Part shown: positions 13,454-53,258 of the stretch, in pieces
Layout of the letters: each line of letters opens with the position of its first letter
Position numbering within the stretch: the first letter of the stretch is position 1
Assembly (NCBI GenBank): GCA_041725955.1
Contig: JBGRQE010000011.1
Span: forward strand, 348-64,347
Source of the DNA: Bacteroidales bacterium
GTDB taxonomy: Bacteria > Bacteroidota > Bacteroidia > Bacteroidales > JBGRPZ01
DNA length: 64,000 nt
Reading direction: 5' to 3'
Notes under the pieces: model-generated
What the model was told of the DNA's origin: nothing
What the model saw: the letters and a program-made list of their open reading frames with translations, nothing else
The model's database searches: none
Program-made: the position numbers and the translations under genes

Positions 13454-14266
13454 ATGGAGTTAAAACTAAATAAACCTCTTGCTTTTATCGATTTAGAAAC
13501 TACTGGATTGAAGATAGCTGTCGACAGAATTGTAGAAATTAGCATTGTTAAAGTAATGCCTAATGAGGAAGTAAAAAAGAAAACTCTTCGTATAAATCCA
13601 GTTATTCCTATATCAGAAGAATCAACCAATATTCATGGTATAAAGAATGAAGACGTTGAGAATGAACCTACATTTTGCGATGTAGCTAAAGAGCTTAACC
13701 AATTTCTTACGGGTTGTGATTTGGCTGGTTATAACTCCAACAAATTCGATATACCTCTTCTTGTTGAAGAATTCCTTAGAGCAGATGTTGATTTCGACAT
13801 AAAATCGAGGAAACTTGTTGATGTTCAGAATATATTCCACAAAATGGAACCTAGAACTCTGGTTGCCGCTTATAAATTTTATTGCGATAAAGATCTTACA
13901 AATGCGCATTCTGCAGAGGCCGATACTATTGCAACTTACGAAGTACTTAAAGCTCAAATCGAAAGATACGAGAATATTGAGTATACAGATAGAGATGGAA
14001 ACAAAAGCACTCCAATCGAGAACGATGTAAATGCACTGTCGAGCTTCTCTTTAATGAATAAGAATGTCGATTTGGTAGGTCATGTAATCTTTAACAAAGC
14101 AGGAAAGGAAGTATTCAATTTCGGAAAATATAAAAACGTTGAAGTTGAAGAAGTTTTCAGAAAAGAACCACCGTATTACGATTGGATGATGAAGAGCGAC
14201 TTTCCTTTATCGACAAAGAAAGTAATTACAGCAATAAAACTAAGAGGTTTCAACAAAGGTCGTTAA
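13454..14266 (+). CDS. DEDDh 3'-5' exonuclease (DnaQ/epsilon-like domain protein)
   Basis: 270 aa. Exo I FIDLETTGL, Exo II AGYNSNKFDIPLL, Exo III HSAEADT. Confidence 0.85.
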   Translation: MELKLNKPLAFIDLETTGLKIAVDRIVEISIVKVMPNEEVKKKTLRINPVIPISEESTNIHGIKNEDVENEPTFCDVAKELNQFLTGCDLAGYNSNKFDIPLLVEEFLRADVDFDIKSRKLVDVQNIFHKMEPRTLVAAYKFYCDKDLTNAHSAEADTIATYEVLKAQIERYENIEYTDRDGNKSTPIENDVNALSSFSLMNKNVDLVGHVIFNKAGKEVFNFGKYKNVEVEEVFRKEPPYYDWMMKSDFPLSTKKVITAIKLRGFNKGR

Positions 14267-14952: not shown

Positions 14953-14996
14953 AAAAAGCACCAAGGTGAATTTTAAAAACTACCTTGGTGCTTTTT
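14953..14996. terminator. Bidirectional intrinsic terminator formed by two inverted units of the 22-bp repeat family
   Basis: Perfect 15-bp inverted repeat, aaaaagcaccaaggt (14953-14967) and accttggtgcttttt (14982-14996), with a 14-nt loop. The A-run and T-run flanks allow use in both directions. It lies 58 nt after the FAH stop. Confidence 0.7.
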
Positions 14997-15180
14997 ATAT
15001 TTCATTATAATGTTTTTCATAATTCACCACAATGCTTTTTATAATTCACCATAATAAAAGGGTATCCTCCACCATAATGAAAGGGTCATTTTCTTTACTA
15101 CAAAAGGTATAATCCTCCAGAAGAGATGAACCATTTGAAGTCGAAGGTTGCTCACCTTCACCTTGGTACTTTATTATTTT
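14953..15180. repeat. 22-bp-period degenerate tandem array, locus 1 (CACCWWGGTG-core family)
   Basis: Core starts read at 14959 (CACCAAGGTG), 14981 (TACCTTGGTG), 15003 (CATTATAATG), 15025 (CACCACAATG), 15047 (CACCATAATA), 15070 (CACCATAATG) and, after decayed units, 15159 (CACCTTGGTA). The last is still in phase (4 x 22 after 15070). The array fills the convergent spacer between the FAH gene and the DUF721 gene. Confidence 0.75.
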
Positions 15181-31237: not shown

Positions 31238-32722
31238 ATGCTCGTATACATACTAATTTCCCCAATTTTATTTTGTTATATTGCATTTTTCTCTAAAATA
31301 GTCTTTGAAACCAATAAACTTCCAAAATGGTGGGCTTTAATTCCATATTGGAATATATTTCAGTGGACCAGATTAATCAATTTACCTCCAATAATTAGTT
31401 TACTAGCTTTTGTTCCATTCATCAATTTACTTTTCTTTATTTTTCTTGTCTACAAAATCTTAGAAAAAAACAACTTTAATAATCTTTGGGAAAACATTAT
31501 CGCATTACTACTCCCTTTTATCTTCTTCCCTCTTTACTTTAAAAATAAACTTAAAATAAAACCTGACTCTTCTGTTTCTGCATACTCAAAACCAATTTGG
31601 AGATCATGGCTACATACTTTTATTTTTGCAATTTTATCTGCAATTGTAATCCGACAATTTATTGTTAGCCCTTATATAATTTCATCTTCTTCTATGGAAG
31701 GCACCTTGCTCACAGGAGATTATACAATAGTATCAAAATTAAATTATGGGCCTAGAATTCCTCTACCATATTTAAAAAATGATAAAACCAAAGCAGGGAA
31801 CAATAGAAATAGATATTTTAGTTTTATACGCCCTAGTGGCCTCTCAAAAATAAGAAGAGGAGATATTTTAGTTTTCAACTTTCCAGAAGGAGATACATTA
31901 ATAAAAAATCAAAAAGGATATTACTCATATTATGATCTAATTCGAAACATTGGCAGGAAAACAGTACTGTCAGATCCTCAGGCTTTTGGATATCCTGAAT
32001 ATATACCTATTAACAAACGTCAAAATTTTGTAAAGAGATGTGTAGGTTTACCTGGAGATACATTTTCAATTAAAGAAAAACAAACATATGTTAATTCTCT
32101 AAAATTTCCACTCCCATCCAAAGCTCAATTTTTATATTTTGTAACCACAAATGGAGACAAAATTTCACCAGCGTTCTTTCAAAATAATAATGCAAATAAA
32201 TACCCTAATGAAGTAGGTGTTAATCAACAAGCTATTTGGATGTCGCCTAAAGCCAAAGAAAAATTGGAAAATCTTTCCATAATTACAAAAATAAAAGAAA
32301 GACAAGAGCATAAGAATTGGTGGAATAAAGAGATATTTCCGCATACGGAAAATTATCCCTGGAATTCTGATAATTATGGACCTATAGTAATTCCATACAA
32401 AGGAATGAAAATAAAAATCACAAAGTCAAATCTACATTTATACAAAAGAATAATTATTCATTATGAACACAATGATTTAGATTATATAAACAATGAATTT
32501 TACATAAATCAAATAAAAACATCAACCTATAAAATAAAACAAAATTACTTCTGGGTAATGGGTGATAATAGAGATAATAGCATAGATAGCCGATTCTGGG
32601 GATTTGTACCTGAAGATCATATTATAGGAAAAGCCATTTATGTTACACTATCAGTAAATACTGAAAATAAAATATTATCGTCAAAATTTAGATGGAAGAA
32701 TTCTTTTCAATTTTTAAAATAA
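31238..32722 (+). CDS. lepB: Signal peptidase I, paralogue 1, with extended N-terminal membrane domain
   Basis: 494 aa. Catalytic Ser box SSSMEGTL, Lys box KRCVGLPGD, box E GDNRDNSIDSRFWGFVP. N-terminal multi-TM region with a WWALIPYWNIFQW motif. Confidence 0.9.
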   Translation: MLVYILISPILFCYIAFFSKIVFETNKLPKWWALIPYWNIFQWTRLINLPPIISLLAFVPFINLLFFIFLVYKILEKNNFNNLWENIIALLLPFIFFPLYFKNKLKIKPDSSVSAYSKPIWRSWLHTFIFAILSAIVIRQFIVSPYIISSSSMEGTLLTGDYTIVSKLNYGPRIPLPYLKNDKTKAGNNRNRYFSFIRPSGLSKIRRGDILVFNFPEGDTLIKNQKGYYSYYDLIRNIGRKTVLSDPQAFGYPEYIPINKRQNFVKRCVGLPGDTFSIKEKQTYVNSLKFPLPSKAQFLYFVTTNGDKISPAFFQNNNANKYPNEVGVNQQAIWMSPKAKEKLENLSIITKIKERQEHKNWWNKEIFPHTENYPWNSDNYGPIVIPYKGMKIKITKSNLHLYKRIIIHYEHNDLDYINNEFYINQIKTSTYKIKQNYFWVMGDNRDNSIDSRFWGFVPEDHIIGKAIYVTLSVNTENKILSSKFRWKNSFQFLK

Positions 32723-32946
32723 AGGTATGATGACTTTTTTAGTACACGAAAATTATATTTCATCGACTCCTTAATTCTAAATTTATTAAATAATGACTCT
32801 ATCAAAAGTATATAAGCCCGAACAAAGGCTATATCGATTAAGCATTTCACTCTGTCTGCATACTATAAATAAGCATACTACATATAGGAGGTAGCCTTAC
32901 CTTACTTTTGGATCAAGGCAGGTGATGATTGCTCTTTACTCCAAAA

Positions 32947-33084
32947 GGTTTTCATCAAATACCTAGGAGGTTTTCATCAAACACCTAGGAGGTTTTCACC
33001 AAATATCTAGGAGGTTTTTATCAAATATCTAGGAGGTTTCCACCAAATATCTAGGAGGTTTTTACCAAATATCTAGGAGGTTTA
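32947..33084. repeat. Six near-identical 22-bp tandem units (plus partial seventh), locus 2 of the repeat family
   Basis: Units start at 32947, 32969, 32991, 33013, 33035 and 33057 (ggttttcatcaaatacctagga and variants with 1-4 substitutions). Decayed, roughly 22-bp-phased copies flank the core (TAGGAGG at 32885; AAGG motifs at 33095, 33116, 33139). Confidence 0.9.
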
Positions 33085-33319
33085 GGTCTAATTCAAGGTA
33101 AGTGCCGAGGAATTTAAGGGTAGGAATGGTAATGATTTAAGGTAAAAGTAATGACGATTGTTAGTAGGGCTTAAAGGCGTTTAAAGTATAGTAAAAATTA
33201 TTGACGTGTACTTAGTAACTTTTTATTGACTCAATTCATACAATAAACTAGCTATTTTAACAACTTTATCAATATTGATTTGTATTTTCGCAATTCAAAA
33301 CCATAATGACAGAAGTTTT

Positions 33320-34834
33320 ATGCTAGAATTTGTTATATTATTACCAGCTTTATTCACTTTTCCAGCAATTTTCGCATGGAATTTATTTGTAAAAGCGGGC
33401 ATACCAGGATGGAAAACTATAATCCCTTTTTACAATCTTTTTGTTTGGTTAAGACTTATTGAAAAACCTCTTTGGTGGTATATCATACTGATAATTCCTT
33501 TTATCAATATTTTTGTCTTGATGCTAATGGTAATTGAATTATTAAAATGTTACAAAAAACATTCTTTATTAGACCAAGCATTGGCTGTTATTTTTCCTTT
33601 TTTCTATTTACCATGGTTAGGTTTTCAAGAAGAAACTTTTACTGCTCCAAAGGACCAGGAAAAAATTAAAAAAGGTTTTGTTCGTGACTGGGTCGATACA
33701 ATTTTATTTGCAGCAATTGCAGCAATGATAATTAGAACATTTTTGGCAGAGGCGTATACAATACCAACCTCATCGATGGAAAGTTCTTTACTTGTAGGAG
33801 ATTACCTATTTGTAAGTAAATTAGCTTATGGTCCAAAAGTACCTAATACTCCTTTATCATTTCCATTTGTTCACCATACACTACCTCTGTCAACAGAAAA
33901 AAAATCATATTTAGATTGGATTGAATTGCCAGACTATAGATTCCCTGGTTTTGGTAATGTAAAAAAAGGAGATGCTGTTGTTTTTAATTATCCTGCCGGA
34001 GATACAGTTTCCACCAAATTTCAATCAAACATATCTTATTATGACCTTATTGAAAAATACGGTAGAAAAAAAGTATTGAGTAACCCTGCTACTTTCGGAG
34101 AAATCGTTTATCGTCCTATCGACAAACGTGAAAATTATATAAAAAGATGCATTGGAGGCCCTGGCGATTCTCTATACTTAAAAGATAAAATTGTTTATAT
34201 AAACGGGAAAAAAGCTCCAATACCAGAAAACTCTCAAGCACTTTATTGGATTAAAACTAATGGAACACCTATTTCCAATTACTATTTCGATCAATTAAAT
34301 GTTTCTGAATACCAAGAGTTTCTTGGTAAAGACAATGTTATGTGGGCTCAATTAACAAGGGCAGCGAAAGATAAAATTGAAAAACTGCCAAATGTGTTAG
34401 AAGTTCAAGTGAATTTAAGACAAGCAGGAACTCCTAATACAGATGTATTTCCAAACGATATAAATTATTCTTGGAGTATGGATAATTTTGGTCCTATATA
34501 CATCCCTAAAAAGGGAGCAACGATAAAATTATCTCAAAAAAACATAGCACTGTATAGAAGAGTTATTCATGCATATGAAGGAAATTCTTTAGAAGAAAAG
34601 GATGGTAAATTCTTTATTAATGGTAAGGAAACAGATTCTTATACTTTTAAAATGAATTATTACTGGATGATGGGCGATAATCGTGATAATAGTGCAGATT
34701 CACGAGTATGGGGTTATGTACCAGAAAATCATATTGTAGGAAAAGCCTTCTTTGTATGGTTATCATTAGACAAGAACAAAACACTATTCGATGGTAAAAT
34801 ACGTTGGAATAAATTGTTCCGTGTAATTAGATAA
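33320..34834 (+). CDS. lepB: Signal peptidase I, paralogue 2
   Basis: SSMESSLLVGD, KRCIGGPGD and GDNRDNSADSRVWGYVP motifs. N-terminal GWKTIIPFYNLFVW membrane domain. I prefer the ATG at 33320 (MLEFVILL) over the track start at 33275. Confidence 0.9.
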   Translation: MLEFVILLPALFTFPAIFAWNLFVKAGIPGWKTIIPFYNLFVWLRLIEKPLWWYIILIIPFINIFVLMLMVIELLKCYKKHSLLDQALAVIFPFFYLPWLGFQEETFTAPKDQEKIKKGFVRDWVDTILFAAIAAMIIRTFLAEAYTIPTSSMESSLLVGDYLFVSKLAYGPKVPNTPLSFPFVHHTLPLSTEKKSYLDWIELPDYRFPGFGNVKKGDAVVFNYPAGDTVSTKFQSNISYYDLIEKYGRKKVLSNPATFGEIVYRPIDKRENYIKRCIGGPGDSLYLKDKIVYINGKKAPIPENSQALYWIKTNGTPISNYYFDQLNVSEYQEFLGKDNVMWAQLTRAAKDKIEKLPNVLEVQVNLRQAGTPNTDVFPNDINYSWSMDNFGPIYIPKKGATIKLSQKNIALYRRVIHAYEGNSLEEKDGKFFINGKETDSYTFKMNYYWMMGDNRDNSADSRVWGYVPENHIVGKAFFVWLSLDKNKTLFDGKIRWNKLFRVIR

Positions 34835-52948: not shown

Positions 52949-53258
52949 GCACCTTGGTGAAGGGATACCAACCACCAAGGTGCAAGGGTAGCTTGCACCA
53001 TAATGCAATGGTTCATCCCTAGTCGAGAGTTACACCCTTGCACCTTGGTGCACGACACCATTCCTAGTCGTTGGTTGCACCCCTTCACCTAGGTGATTTT
53101 TAATTTTCATTAGGGTGCATTTCAATTTTCACCATGGTGCTTTTTAATTTTCATTACGGTGCTTTTTAAAATTCACCTTGGTACTTTTTAATTTTCACCT
53201 TGGTGCTTTTTGATTTTCATTAGGGTGCATTTCGATTTTCACCATGGTGCTTTTAATT
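52949..53258. repeat. ~14-unit 22-bp-period tandem array, locus 3 (CACCWWGGTG-core family) with nested inverted repeats in its 5' part
   Basis: Core starts at 53086, 53108, 53130, 53152, 53174, 53196, 53218 and 53240 are exactly 22 bp apart (CACCTAGGTG, CATTAGGGTG, CACCATGGTG, CATTACGGTG, CACCTTGGTA, CACCTTGGTG, CATTAGGGTG, CACCATGGTG). More diverged cores sit at 52950, 52973, 52996 and 53041. The perfect 17-bp inverted pair 52973-52989 / 53034-53050 is nested inside a 14/16 pair 52949-52964 / 53081-53096. Confidence 0.9.

What the first reader, a model, noticed from the sequence alone, without database searches (positions are those of the whole stretch)
32880..33190. 22-bp repeat array, locus 2: six near-identical head-to-tail units, each carrying AGGAGG, with decayed copies on both sides
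Seen: units start at 32947, 32969, 32991, 33013, 33035 and 33057 and differ by only 1-4 substitutions (GGTTTTCAYCAAAYAYCTAGGA). A partial seventh follows. Roughly 22-bp-phased degenerate copies continue to about 33190 (AAGG motifs at 33095, 33116, 33139), and TAGGAGG recurs at 32885. When rotated, the unit reads ACCTAGGAGGTTTT-CATCAAAT. Its first 14 nt align with ACCTTGGTGCTTTT of the arrays at 52949-53258 and 14953-15180. The 22-bp period excludes coding, and there are no unique spacers, so it is not CRISPR. Inference: this is a young, recently expanded member of a dispersed minisatellite family. Unit homogeneity implies ongoing slippage or recombination, so copy number may be strain-variable. 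The 22-bp spacing (two helical turns) would place any bound protein on one face of the DNA. I know of no described Bacteroidota element with this structure.
Basis: partly seen in the sequence, partly recalled or inferred. Interest (0 to 1): 0.6.

Follow-up and report, generated by a model that had tools for sequence, protein, structure and literature searches.

The report
Repeat array inside an old transposon relic
The six 22-base repeats are the core of a 476-base non-coding relic of a jumping gene that sits between two signal-peptidase genes. It is one of about 70 such relics in this uncultured Bacteroidales genome, a known kind of element, but 12 of its 22 repeat positions are unexpectedly frozen.

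Summary
The array is not a lone slippage product. It is the centre of a complete miniature transposon (MITE) at 32740-33215, which has 17-19 bp terminal inverted repeats and a 9-bp target duplication matching at 8 of 9 bases. Its ends and part of its leader derive from an IS4-family insertion sequence that is still present in at least four copies in this genome.

The genome holds 78 arrays of this unit, all intergenic, and most share one leader and one tail. The closest described thing is BrickBuilt of Porphyromonas gingivalis. The architecture is the same, but there is no sequence homology and the parent IS family differs.

The claimed kinship with the arrays at 52949 and 14953 is not supported (11/22 identity, p=0.5). 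The element is old, not young: the nearest copies have flanks 79-81% identical.

Two points remain unexplained:
- Twelve of the 22 unit positions (AA.A.CT.GGAGGT.T) are invariant across 77 arrays, while the other ten diverge as fast as the flanks.
- Periods of 21-23 bp dominate among about 26 other, largely unrelated repeat families here and in the sister species, which lacks this family.

Verdict: a new member of a known kind, of moderate interest.

The parts
31238..32722 (+). lepB1, signal peptidase I paralogue upstream of the element
   Evidence: Pfam Peptidase_S26 1.1e-39 plus DUF5684.
32731..32739 (.). Left copy of the 9-bp target-site duplication, TGACTTTTT
   Evidence: Matches TAACTTTTT at 33216-33224 in 8 of 9 bases, directly outside both TIRs. 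The parent IS makes 9-bp duplications (ATCCACACC at contig C6).
32740..32756 (+). Left terminal inverted repeat, TAGTACACGAAAATTAT
   Evidence: Matches the IS4-family end CTAAGTACACGACAATAAT.
32740..32883 (+). Leader part L1, derived from the IS end and including a decayed antisense remnant of the transposase 3' end
   Evidence: An iterated nhmmer model of the leader retrieves the IS copies at E 1e-8 to 1e-19. Local alignment to the IS end scores 45, against 25.4 +/- 4.1 for shuffles.
32884..32946 (+). Leader part L2, with 22-bp-phased AGGT motifs and one decayed unit (32925-32946)
   Evidence: The L2 HMM hits 41 sites, 31 of them beside A arrays. Across copies, AGGT peaks at 26, 48, 70 and 92 nt upstream of the first core.
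32947..33078 (+). Six 22-bp units (rotated consensus ACCTAGGAGGTTTTCATCAAAT); a partial seventh follows to 33083
   Evidence: TRF. Units read. Family statistics.
33079..33164 (+). Tail T1: three diverged 21-23-bp units carrying AAGGTA and ending in GATTGTTAG
   Evidence: 46 of 67 tails form one cluster. The iterated tail model is 79 nt long with 45 hits. AGGT peaks at +18, +40 and +62.
33165..33215 (+). Tail R2 with the right terminal inverted repeat ATTATTGACGTGTACTTAG (33197-33215)
   Evidence: The reverse complement aligns to the IS end with score 44, against 18.7 +/- 3.2 for shuffles. An HMM of R2-type ends also hits the IS copies.
33216..33224 (.). Right copy of the target-site duplication, TAACTTTTT
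33266..33294 (+). 29-bp block upstream of lepB2 (27/29, counted by eye, shared with the sister species), probably the lepB2 promoter region, left intact by the insertion
   Evidence: Comparison with locus L011 of G001. The promoter role is inferred.
33320..34834 (+). lepB2, signal peptidase I; the probable start is the ATG at 33320, not the TTG at 33275
   Evidence: Pfam Peptidase_S26 2.2e-42. The G001 orthologue is 67% identical and its N-terminus aligns from this ATG.

Best explanation
The array is the internal minisatellite of a non-autonomous transposon (a MITE) derived from an IS4-family insertion sequence. The copy in the window is complete: TIR, IS-derived leader, 22-bp-phased leader units, six homogeneous 22-bp units, three diverged tail units, IS-derived tail and TIR, flanked by a 9-bp target duplication. 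It inserted long ago into what was then a 112-bp spacer between lepB1 and lepB2, upstream of a conserved block that is probably the lepB2 promoter.

Shown: the anatomy; the TIRs and the duplication; homology of both ends to an IS still present in the genome; 78 intergenic arrays that mostly share one leader and one tail; and absence from the only sister species.

Inferred: the IS transposase moved the element in trans, and most copies are now truncated and immobile. The array gains and loses units by slipped-strand mispairing or unequal exchange, which keeps neighbouring units alike.

In addition, 12 of the 22 unit positions are held constant across all arrays while the rest drift at the rate of the flanks. 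Something therefore reads the core sequence. I think this is most likely a protein on double-stranded DNA, given the strict two-turn spacing, but this last step is the least certain (about 0.3).
For: - Array and units.
- Genome census: 78 arrays, 10.8 kb in total, none inside an ORF of 110 aa or more. Convergent spacers hold 18 of 52 arrays, against 17% of spacers genome-wide.
- Shared modules: 44 of 63 leaders and 46 of 67 tails each form one cluster.
- TIRs and the 8/9 target duplication of the window copy, plus 9/9 and 8/9 duplications at array-less copies of the same MITE (contigs C3 and C21).
- Parent IS: NCBIfam IS4 family NF033591, 245.7 bits against a cut-off of 152. At least four copies, about 1.2 kb each, ends CTAAGTACACGACAAT, and a 9-bp duplication at C6.
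- Leader and tail homologous to the IS end.
- Identity between units falls with distance, and identity within arrays (0.858) exceeds identity between arrays (0.789).
- Core constraint: pairwise difference is 0.015 at 12 positions, against 0.348 at the other 10 positions and 0.35 in leader and tail columns; Fisher p = 4e-8.
- Absent from the sister species and from the other 119 genomes of the order sample, from 185,579 species genomes and from JGI metagenomes.
- The same architecture is described for BrickBuilt.
Against: - Only the window copy has both TIRs within 450 bp of its array. About 12-13 arrays keep a left TIR and 4-7 a right one, so transposition as a unit is shown for very few copies.
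- No near-identical copies exist (nearest-neighbour flank identity has a median of 79-81%). Current mobility and trans-mobilisation are therefore inferences.
- No empty site or strain polymorphism could be examined.
- A purely selfish, neutral minisatellite does not predict 12 invariant positions.
- No binding protein is identified.
Confidence: 0.78

Rival explanations
1. The array is mainly a selected, helically phased docking platform for a DNA-binding protein, and the transposon frame was only the vehicle. The asymmetric 15-bp core AAnAYCTWGGAGGTnT would be one site, repeated every two helical turns so that the proteins line up on one face of the DNA. Diverged AGGT sites in the leader and tail would extend the platform.
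For: - 12 of 22 positions are invariant in 77 arrays, although the flanks differ by 35%.
- 419 of 439 spacings are exactly 22 bp.
- AGGT stays in 22-bp phase through the leader and tail.
- There is no significant orientation bias relative to neighbouring genes (17 against 10).
- Periods of 21-23 bp dominate among the non-A repeat families (about 26) and in the sister species, which has different sequences.
Against: - No candidate protein is identified.
- Arrays are enriched between convergent gene ends rather than at promoters.
- The family is absent from the sister species, and unit number varies from 2.6 to 9.8. No position-specific host role is therefore evident.
- Conservation could instead serve the element itself.
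Confidence: 0.3
2. The units are single-strand hairpins (arms AGGTTTT and AAAACCT with a variable 5-nt loop) that stall replication and so drive their own duplication, as REP-like sequences might. Under this reading the conserved positions are the stem and the variable positions are the loop.
For: The invariant positions coincide with the two arms, and the variable positions 15-19 coincide with the loop. The CCAAA subfamily folds as one hairpin per unit, with a DNA z-score of -4.6.
Against: - Most units carry a T:T mismatch in mid-stem (237 T:T and 52 A:A, against 101 A:T), with no compensatory change.
- The window array folds no better than shuffles (z = -1.2 and -1.4).
- G6 and G7 are conserved although they are unpaired.
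- Dyad symmetry is not enriched across the 27 families.
- The three RAYT-like genes are not flanked by this unit.
Confidence: 0.1
3. The element acts as RNA. A transcript of the plus strand would carry six perfect Shine-Dalgarno cores (GGAGGU) and could titrate the anti-SD tail of 16S rRNA or an RNA-binding protein. A minus-strand transcript would mimic the anti-SD.
For: GGAGGT is invariant in all arrays. BrickBuilt elements are transcribed and carry promoters.
Against: - There is no Rfam match, even at E<=1, beyond a chance snoRNA hit at E=0.94.
- The plus strand folds no better than shuffles (z = +0.74), and the minus strand only weakly better (z = -2.3).
- There is no clear strand bias relative to upstream genes.
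Confidence: 0.05
4. One reading: loci 1, 2 and 3 of the window are members of one dispersed minisatellite family, and locus 2 is its young, recently expanded copy.
For: All three loci have the same 22-bp period. The ACCTWGG cores look similar, and one variant pair reaches 14/22 (p=0.02, uncorrected).
Against: - The consensus units match at 11/22, p=0.51.
- The leaders and tails of the CACCWWGGTG arrays look unrelated to those of this family by eye; no formal search was run.
- The flanks of this family are 19-21% diverged from their nearest copies, so the insertion is not young.
Confidence: 0.05

Closest known systems
BrickBuilt, the minisatellite-bearing MITE of Porphyromonas gingivalis (Klein et al. 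2015, Mob DNA 6:18, PMC4596501)
   Same: - Tandem units of 22-23 nt without spacers, in variable number.
- Distinct, non-homologous leader and tail.
- Short TIRs that match a resident IS.
- Few copies keep both TIRs (4 of 19 there, 1 of 78 here).
- Always intergenic and species-restricted, with no coding capacity.
- Conserved and variable positions within the unit.
   Different: - No sequence homology: the TIR is GAGACCTTTGCA (IS5-like) there and CTAAGTACACGAC (IS4 family) here.
- The unit is 23 nt there and 22 nt here.
- There are 19 copies there, against about 66-78 here.
- Leaderless or tailless TIR-bearing forms are absent there, whereas array-less copies of the frame exist here.
- Promoter activity was shown there and is untested here.
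BOX elements of Streptococcus pneumoniae (boxA-(boxB)n-boxC); this comparison rests on my own knowledge
   Same: A modular, polar, non-coding interspersed repeat with a variable number of internal tandem modules between two different end modules, present in about 100 copies per genome.
   Different: The boxB unit is 45 bp. No cognate IS is established for BOX. It occurs in a different phylum, and no homology is expected or seen.
Plasmid and phage iterons (for example the seven 22-bp iterons of R6K gamma ori); this comparison rests on my own knowledge
   Same: Direct 22-bp repeats with a conserved core and a variable linker, phased on one face of the helix.
   Different: Iterons sit at one origin next to a rep gene. 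Here there are 78 chromosomal intergenic loci with no rep gene, inside a transposon-derived frame.

Membership tests
MITE (non-autonomous derivative of an insertion sequence) | Terminal inverted repeats at both ends | tested here: met
   The TIRs lie at 32740-32756 and 33197-33215 and match at 14 of 17 positions with one gap, counted by eye.
MITE (non-autonomous derivative of an insertion sequence) | Target-site duplication of the length made by the parent IS | tested here: met
   TGACTTTTT and TAACTTTTT match at 8/9, directly outside the TIRs. Array-less copies show 9/9 and 8/9. The IS composite at C6 shows 9/9.
MITE (non-autonomous derivative of an insertion sequence) | Small size and no transposase gene | tested here: met
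   The element is 476 bp. It contains only a 47-aa ORF over the decayed transposase remnant.
MITE (non-autonomous derivative of an insertion sequence) | A cognate autonomous IS with the same ends in the same genome | tested here: met
   An IS4-family IS of about 1.2 kb is present in at least four copies. The leader and tail models retrieve it.
MITE (non-autonomous derivative of an insertion sequence) | Evidence of mobility (insertion polymorphism, empty sites) | tested here: inconclusive
   The element is absent at dapB-lepB in G001, but that locus also lacks lepB1.
BrickBuilt (as a sequence family) | Homology of the unit, leader, tail or TIR to the P. gingivalis element | tested here: not met
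   The published TIR GAGACCTTTGCA is unrelated to CTAAGTACACGAC. The parent is IS5-like there and IS4 family here. The unit sequence is not printed in the paper's text, so it was not compared.
BrickBuilt (as an architecture) | Leader, spacer-less 22-23-nt minisatellite, distinct tail and IS-like TIRs; multi-copy, intergenic, species-limited | tested here: met
   compared.
BrickBuilt (as an architecture) | Bidirectional promoter activity of leader and tail | not testable with these tools
   The sigma-70-type scan is at background (4 sites found, 4.3 expected) and does not model Bacteroidota promoters. No RNA data were available.
CRISPR array | Repeats separated by unique spacers | tested here: not met
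   The units abut head to tail with no spacers.
REP/BIME with RAYT | Hairpin units that also flank a Y1 (RAYT) transposase gene | tested here: not met
   Three Y1_Tnp genes were found. Their flanking hairpins are local (2-3 copies each), and none carries the CCTAGGAGG unit.
Known structured RNA (Rfam 15) | Match to a covariance model | tested here: not met
   No match at gathering score in the window. The only hit is a chance one at E=0.94.
Plasmid-type iterons | A single locus at an origin, next to a rep gene | tested here: not met
   There are 78 dispersed intergenic loci. The flanking genes here are lepB1 and lepB2.

The most novel reading that the evidence does not exclude
Bacteroidales may have a lineage-wide 'two-turn ruler': a protein or a replication/repair process that creates or preserves tandem arrays of 21-23 bp (and 43-44 bp) whatever their sequence. 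Family A would be its most successful client in this species. Its frozen 15-bp core, and the AGGT motif that stays in 22-bp phase through the leader and tail, would be the recognised feature. The transposon frame would be only the means of dispersal.

In support: about 26 other, largely unrelated sequence families share the period in this genome. The sister species shows the same excess of this period, with its own dispersed cassette family that has a 43-bp unit, although no BLAST- or HMM-detectable homology to family A remains.
Probability: 0.2. Interest if true: 0.7.

Novelty: new member of a known kind. Interest (0 to 1): 0.4.

Why it matters
As an element it is ordinary: one more species-specific MITE with a minisatellite, which breaks short-read assemblies (24 of 226 contig ends lie beside one) and pads intergenic spacers. 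It does give an unusually clean example, with both ends, the target duplication and the parent IS all identifiable.

Its value lies in two measurable oddities. First, positions within the unit are under strong constraint in an otherwise decaying family. Second, the unit length is conserved across unrelated sequences and across species. If a protein or a process sets that length, these arrays would give direct access to an unstudied aspect of Bacteroidales chromosome biology. The array loci would also be good strain-typing markers.

Tried and rejected
- Rfam at gathering and at E<=1: nothing usable.
- BLAST against plasmids: no match.
- BLAST against phages: only a convergent-looking 23-bp array in a Vibrio phage.
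- Exact-pattern scans of 185,579 species genomes and of JGI metagenomes: 0 hits.
- Exact-protein look-ups of LepB1 and LepB2 to find other strains: none on record.
- Hairpin covariation at unit positions 12:22 and 2:10: none.
- General dyad symmetry of 22-bp units across 27 families: not enriched (mean arm 3.8 against 3.3; 2 of 27 significant). My first impression that every family carries a hairpin was wrong.
- Link to RAYT/Y1 transposases: rejected.
- The 22-bp core as a subterminal transposase-binding site: the IS copies contain no CTAGGAG or CTTGGAG motif.
- Family A against family B kinship: not significant.
- Array orientation against local GC skew: 44 of 69 arrays have the AGGAGG strand on the C-rich strand (Fisher p=0.03, uncorrected). 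This is too weak to build on.
- A canonical Bacteroidota -33/-7 promoter inside the unit: none found by eye. The sigma-70 scan is at background.

Full report
**Observation.** Every stated detail holds.
- Tandem Repeats Finder reports a 22-bp period, 6.3 copies, 90% matches and score 213 at 32946-33083.
- The six units begin at 32947, 32969, 32991, 33013, 33035 and 33057 and differ by a few substitutions. A partial seventh begins at 33079.
- AAGG lies at 33095, 33116 and 33139, and TAGGAGG at 32885.
- No ORF of 40 aa or more crosses the array.
- The array lies between two signal peptidase I paralogues, 31238-32722 and 33320-34834 (Pfam Peptidase_S26 plus DUF5684).

**A large family.** The window is contig C11 of a 3.80-Mb, 113-contig, 33% G+C assembly.
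- Genome-wide, period 22 is by far the commonest tandem-repeat period.
- After merging, 128 arrays have periods of 21-23 bp. Of these, 78 (10.8 kb) carry the unit ACCTAGGAGGTTTTCATCAAAT or close variants.
- None lies inside an ORF of 110 aa or more. Spacers between convergent genes are over-represented (18 of 52, against 17% of spacers genome-wide).
- 24 of 226 contig ends lie within 300 bp of such an array, against about 1.5% expected. The arrays therefore break the assembly, and the true number of loci is about 66-78.

**Anatomy.** Oriented copies share a polar build.
- With boundaries set on the first and last core, 44 of 63 leaders and 46 of 67 tails each fall into one cluster, and 29 copies have both.
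- The tail ends sharply about 80 nt after the array. The leader is ragged and reaches up to about 230 nt.
The tail is three diverged units carrying AAGGTA.
- Across copies, AGGT peaks at +18, +40 and +62 after the last core and at 26, 48, 70 and 92 nt before the first. The whole cassette is therefore 22-bp periodic, with a 4-nt register shift at each junction.

**Transposon origin.**
- The outer leader starts with TTAGTACACGACAATTATA in about 13 copies.
- That is the end of an insertion sequence of about 1.2 kb, present in at least four copies in this genome (C61, two on C32, C6). Its ends are CTAAGTACACGACAAT.
- Its 363-aa transposase scores 245.7 bits on the NCBIfam IS4-family model (cut-off 152) and has the Y-2-R-3-E-6-K signature (read by eye in the translation).
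- An iterated leader model retrieves the IS copies themselves (E 1e-8 to 1e-19).
- The window leader aligns to the transposase 3' region with score 45, against 25.4 +/- 4.1 for shuffles. The right tail aligns to the IS end with score 44, against 18.7 +/- 3.2.
- The window copy is the only array with both ends within 450 bp: TIRs at 32740-32756 and 33197-33215. They are flanked by TGACTTTTT and TAACTTTTT (8/9), exactly where a 9-bp duplication should be.
- The same frame without an array carries duplications of 9/9 (contig C3) and 8/9 (C21). The IS composite on C6 carries ATCCACACC at 9/9.
- The element at 32740-33215 is therefore a bona fide IS4-derived MITE.
- Removing the 476 bp and one duplication leaves a 112-bp lepB1-lepB2 spacer.
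- A 29-bp block at 33266-33294, shared at 27/29 (counted by eye) with the sister species upstream of its lepB, lies untouched downstream.

**Distribution.**
- The only other species of the genus (G001; LepB 67% identical) has no triple-phased core, and no BLAST match beyond the IS end. At dapB-lepB it has neither lepB1 nor the element.
- None of 119 other genomes sampled across the order (one per family by the tool's f-labels) has the unit.
- Exact-pattern scans of 185,579 species genomes and of JGI metagenomes gave nothing.

**Age and dynamics.**
- Nearest-neighbour identity of the flanks has a median of 79% for leaders and 81.5% for tails. The family is old, and the 'young' reading is wrong for the insertion.
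- Within arrays, unit identity falls from 0.885 for neighbours to 0.808 at five units apart. It exceeds identity between arrays (0.858 against 0.789). This is the signature of local duplication and loss.

**An unexpected constraint.**
- I used the Tandem Repeats Finder consensus of 77 arrays, which is independent of my core pattern. Twelve positions (AA.A.CT.GGAGGT.T) have a mean pairwise difference of 0.015, and nine of them never vary. The other ten positions average 0.348.
- Leader and tail columns average 0.35, and only 7 of 141 of them fall below 0.05 (Fisher p = 4e-8).
- Neutral drift of independent arrays over the time in which the flanks diverged by 20-35% cannot give this pattern. Decayed edge units show that the core can mutate.

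**What might read the core.**
- The invariant positions coincide with two arms, AGGTTTT and AAAACCT. However, the mid-stem pair is mostly T:T (237) or A:A (52), against A:T (101), with no compensation.
- The window array folds no better than shuffles (z = -1.2 and -1.4), whereas a minority subfamily does fold (z = -4.6).
- As RNA, the element's plus strand has z = +0.74 and its minus strand z = -2.3.
- I therefore favour sequence-specific reading of double-stranded DNA over a hairpin or an RNA, with low confidence.

**Relation to the other two loci.**
- The arrays at 52949-53258 and 14953-15180 belong to a separate family built on CACCWWGGTG, whose flanking modules look different by eye.
- Consensus against consensus gives 11/22 (p=0.51). 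Only a chosen variant pair reaches 14/22 (p=0.02, uncorrected).

**Shared period.**
- Excluding family A, arrays with at least 2.5 copies number 10, 24 and 11 at periods 21, 22 and 23, and 8 at period 44. The counts at periods 19, 20 and 24 are 1, 3 and 2.
- The units have no common dyad symmetry.
- In a 400-kb sample of G001 the same excess appears (8, 2 and 1 arrays at periods 21, 22 and 23, and 4 at period 43), with different sequences. The sample includes a dispersed leader-array-tail cassette of G001's own, and none of my leader or tail models hits it.
- Earlier notes of this scan report the same habit in other Bacteroidales. I treat those as leads only.

**Comparison with known elements.**
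- BrickBuilt of P. gingivalis has a 23-nt spacer-less minisatellite, distinct leader and tail, IS-like TIRs kept by 4 of 19 copies, intergenic location, species restriction, and conserved and variable unit positions.
- This element works like BrickBuilt but is not homologous: the TIRs differ, the parent is IS4 rather than IS5, and the copy number is roughly four times higher.
- CRISPR, iterons, REP/RAYT and Rfam families fail their defining tests (see the membership table).

**Verdict.** The array is a real, old, complete MITE with an internal minisatellite, and so a new member of a known kind. The frozen core and the conserved 21-23-bp period are genuine, unexplained observations and deserve a bench test.

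Noticed in passing
genome contig C6:27776-31421 (outside the window): A 3.65-kb stretch is bounded by two inverted IS4-family ends and a perfect 9-bp duplication (ATCCACACC). It holds a partial inverted IS end, about 2.7 kb of other DNA (not annotated here) and a 5'-truncated IS copy. It looks like a composite transposon.
   Followed up: partly
genome contigs C3:505-575 and C70 (outside the window); motif GAGTCTGTTCAAATAAGTGTGTC: A second, roughly 68-bp palindromic MITE-like element is nested inside or abuts several family-A cassettes.
   Followed up: no
L018:1475-1630 (Vibrio phage vB_VpaS_MAR10, JX556418.1:70824-70979): The phage carries a 23-bp x 6.8 perfect tandem array, GTGCCTAGGAGGTTTCAACCTAA, with the same CCTAGGAGGTTT core. 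It lies beside a run of 16-bp iteron-like repeats in an unannotated gap. This is probably convergence, but it is striking.
   Followed up: partly
L024, L026-L028 (genome G031, another family of the order): 24 triple-phased 22-bp arrays have the unit ACCWWGGT...CGATCG..., that is, two palindromes 11 bp apart. The ACCWWGGT core is the same as in the window's arrays at 52949 and 14953, but the linker is unrelated.
   Followed up: partly
L035:2787-2963, L039:13027-13174, L040:154-420 and 13737-13884 (sister species G001): G001 has its own dispersed leader-array-tail cassette, with a 43-bp unit (a 22-mer plus a 21-mer) containing CTAGGAAC and AAAGGTAAAAG. These motifs recall this family's core and tail, although no model detects homology.
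   Followed up: partly
genome contig C53:1-140, and L040 about 250-310: A 21-bp array, AACAAAACTCCTAGTTTTTAA (6.7 copies, 100% identical), at a contig end resembles both the reverse strand of family A with two deletions and a unit type seen in G001.
   Followed up: no
L029, L030, L031 (contigs C17:48013-48357, C41:29884-30228, C27:37583-37927): Three Y1 (IS200/RAYT-like) transposase genes are each flanked by local hairpins present in only 2-3 copies. They are not linked to the 22-bp families.
   Followed up: yes
window 33266-33320; L011:1480-1546: lepB2 most likely starts at the ATG at 33320, and a 29-bp upstream block is conserved with G001. G001 has a single lepB after dapB, so lepB1 is an extra paralogue here. 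The 597-bp spacer is due to the MITE.
   Followed up: partly
whole genome: 258 of the 400 CCTAGG sites in the genome lie in family-A arrays. CTAG is under-represented about 2.2-fold overall.
   Followed up: no
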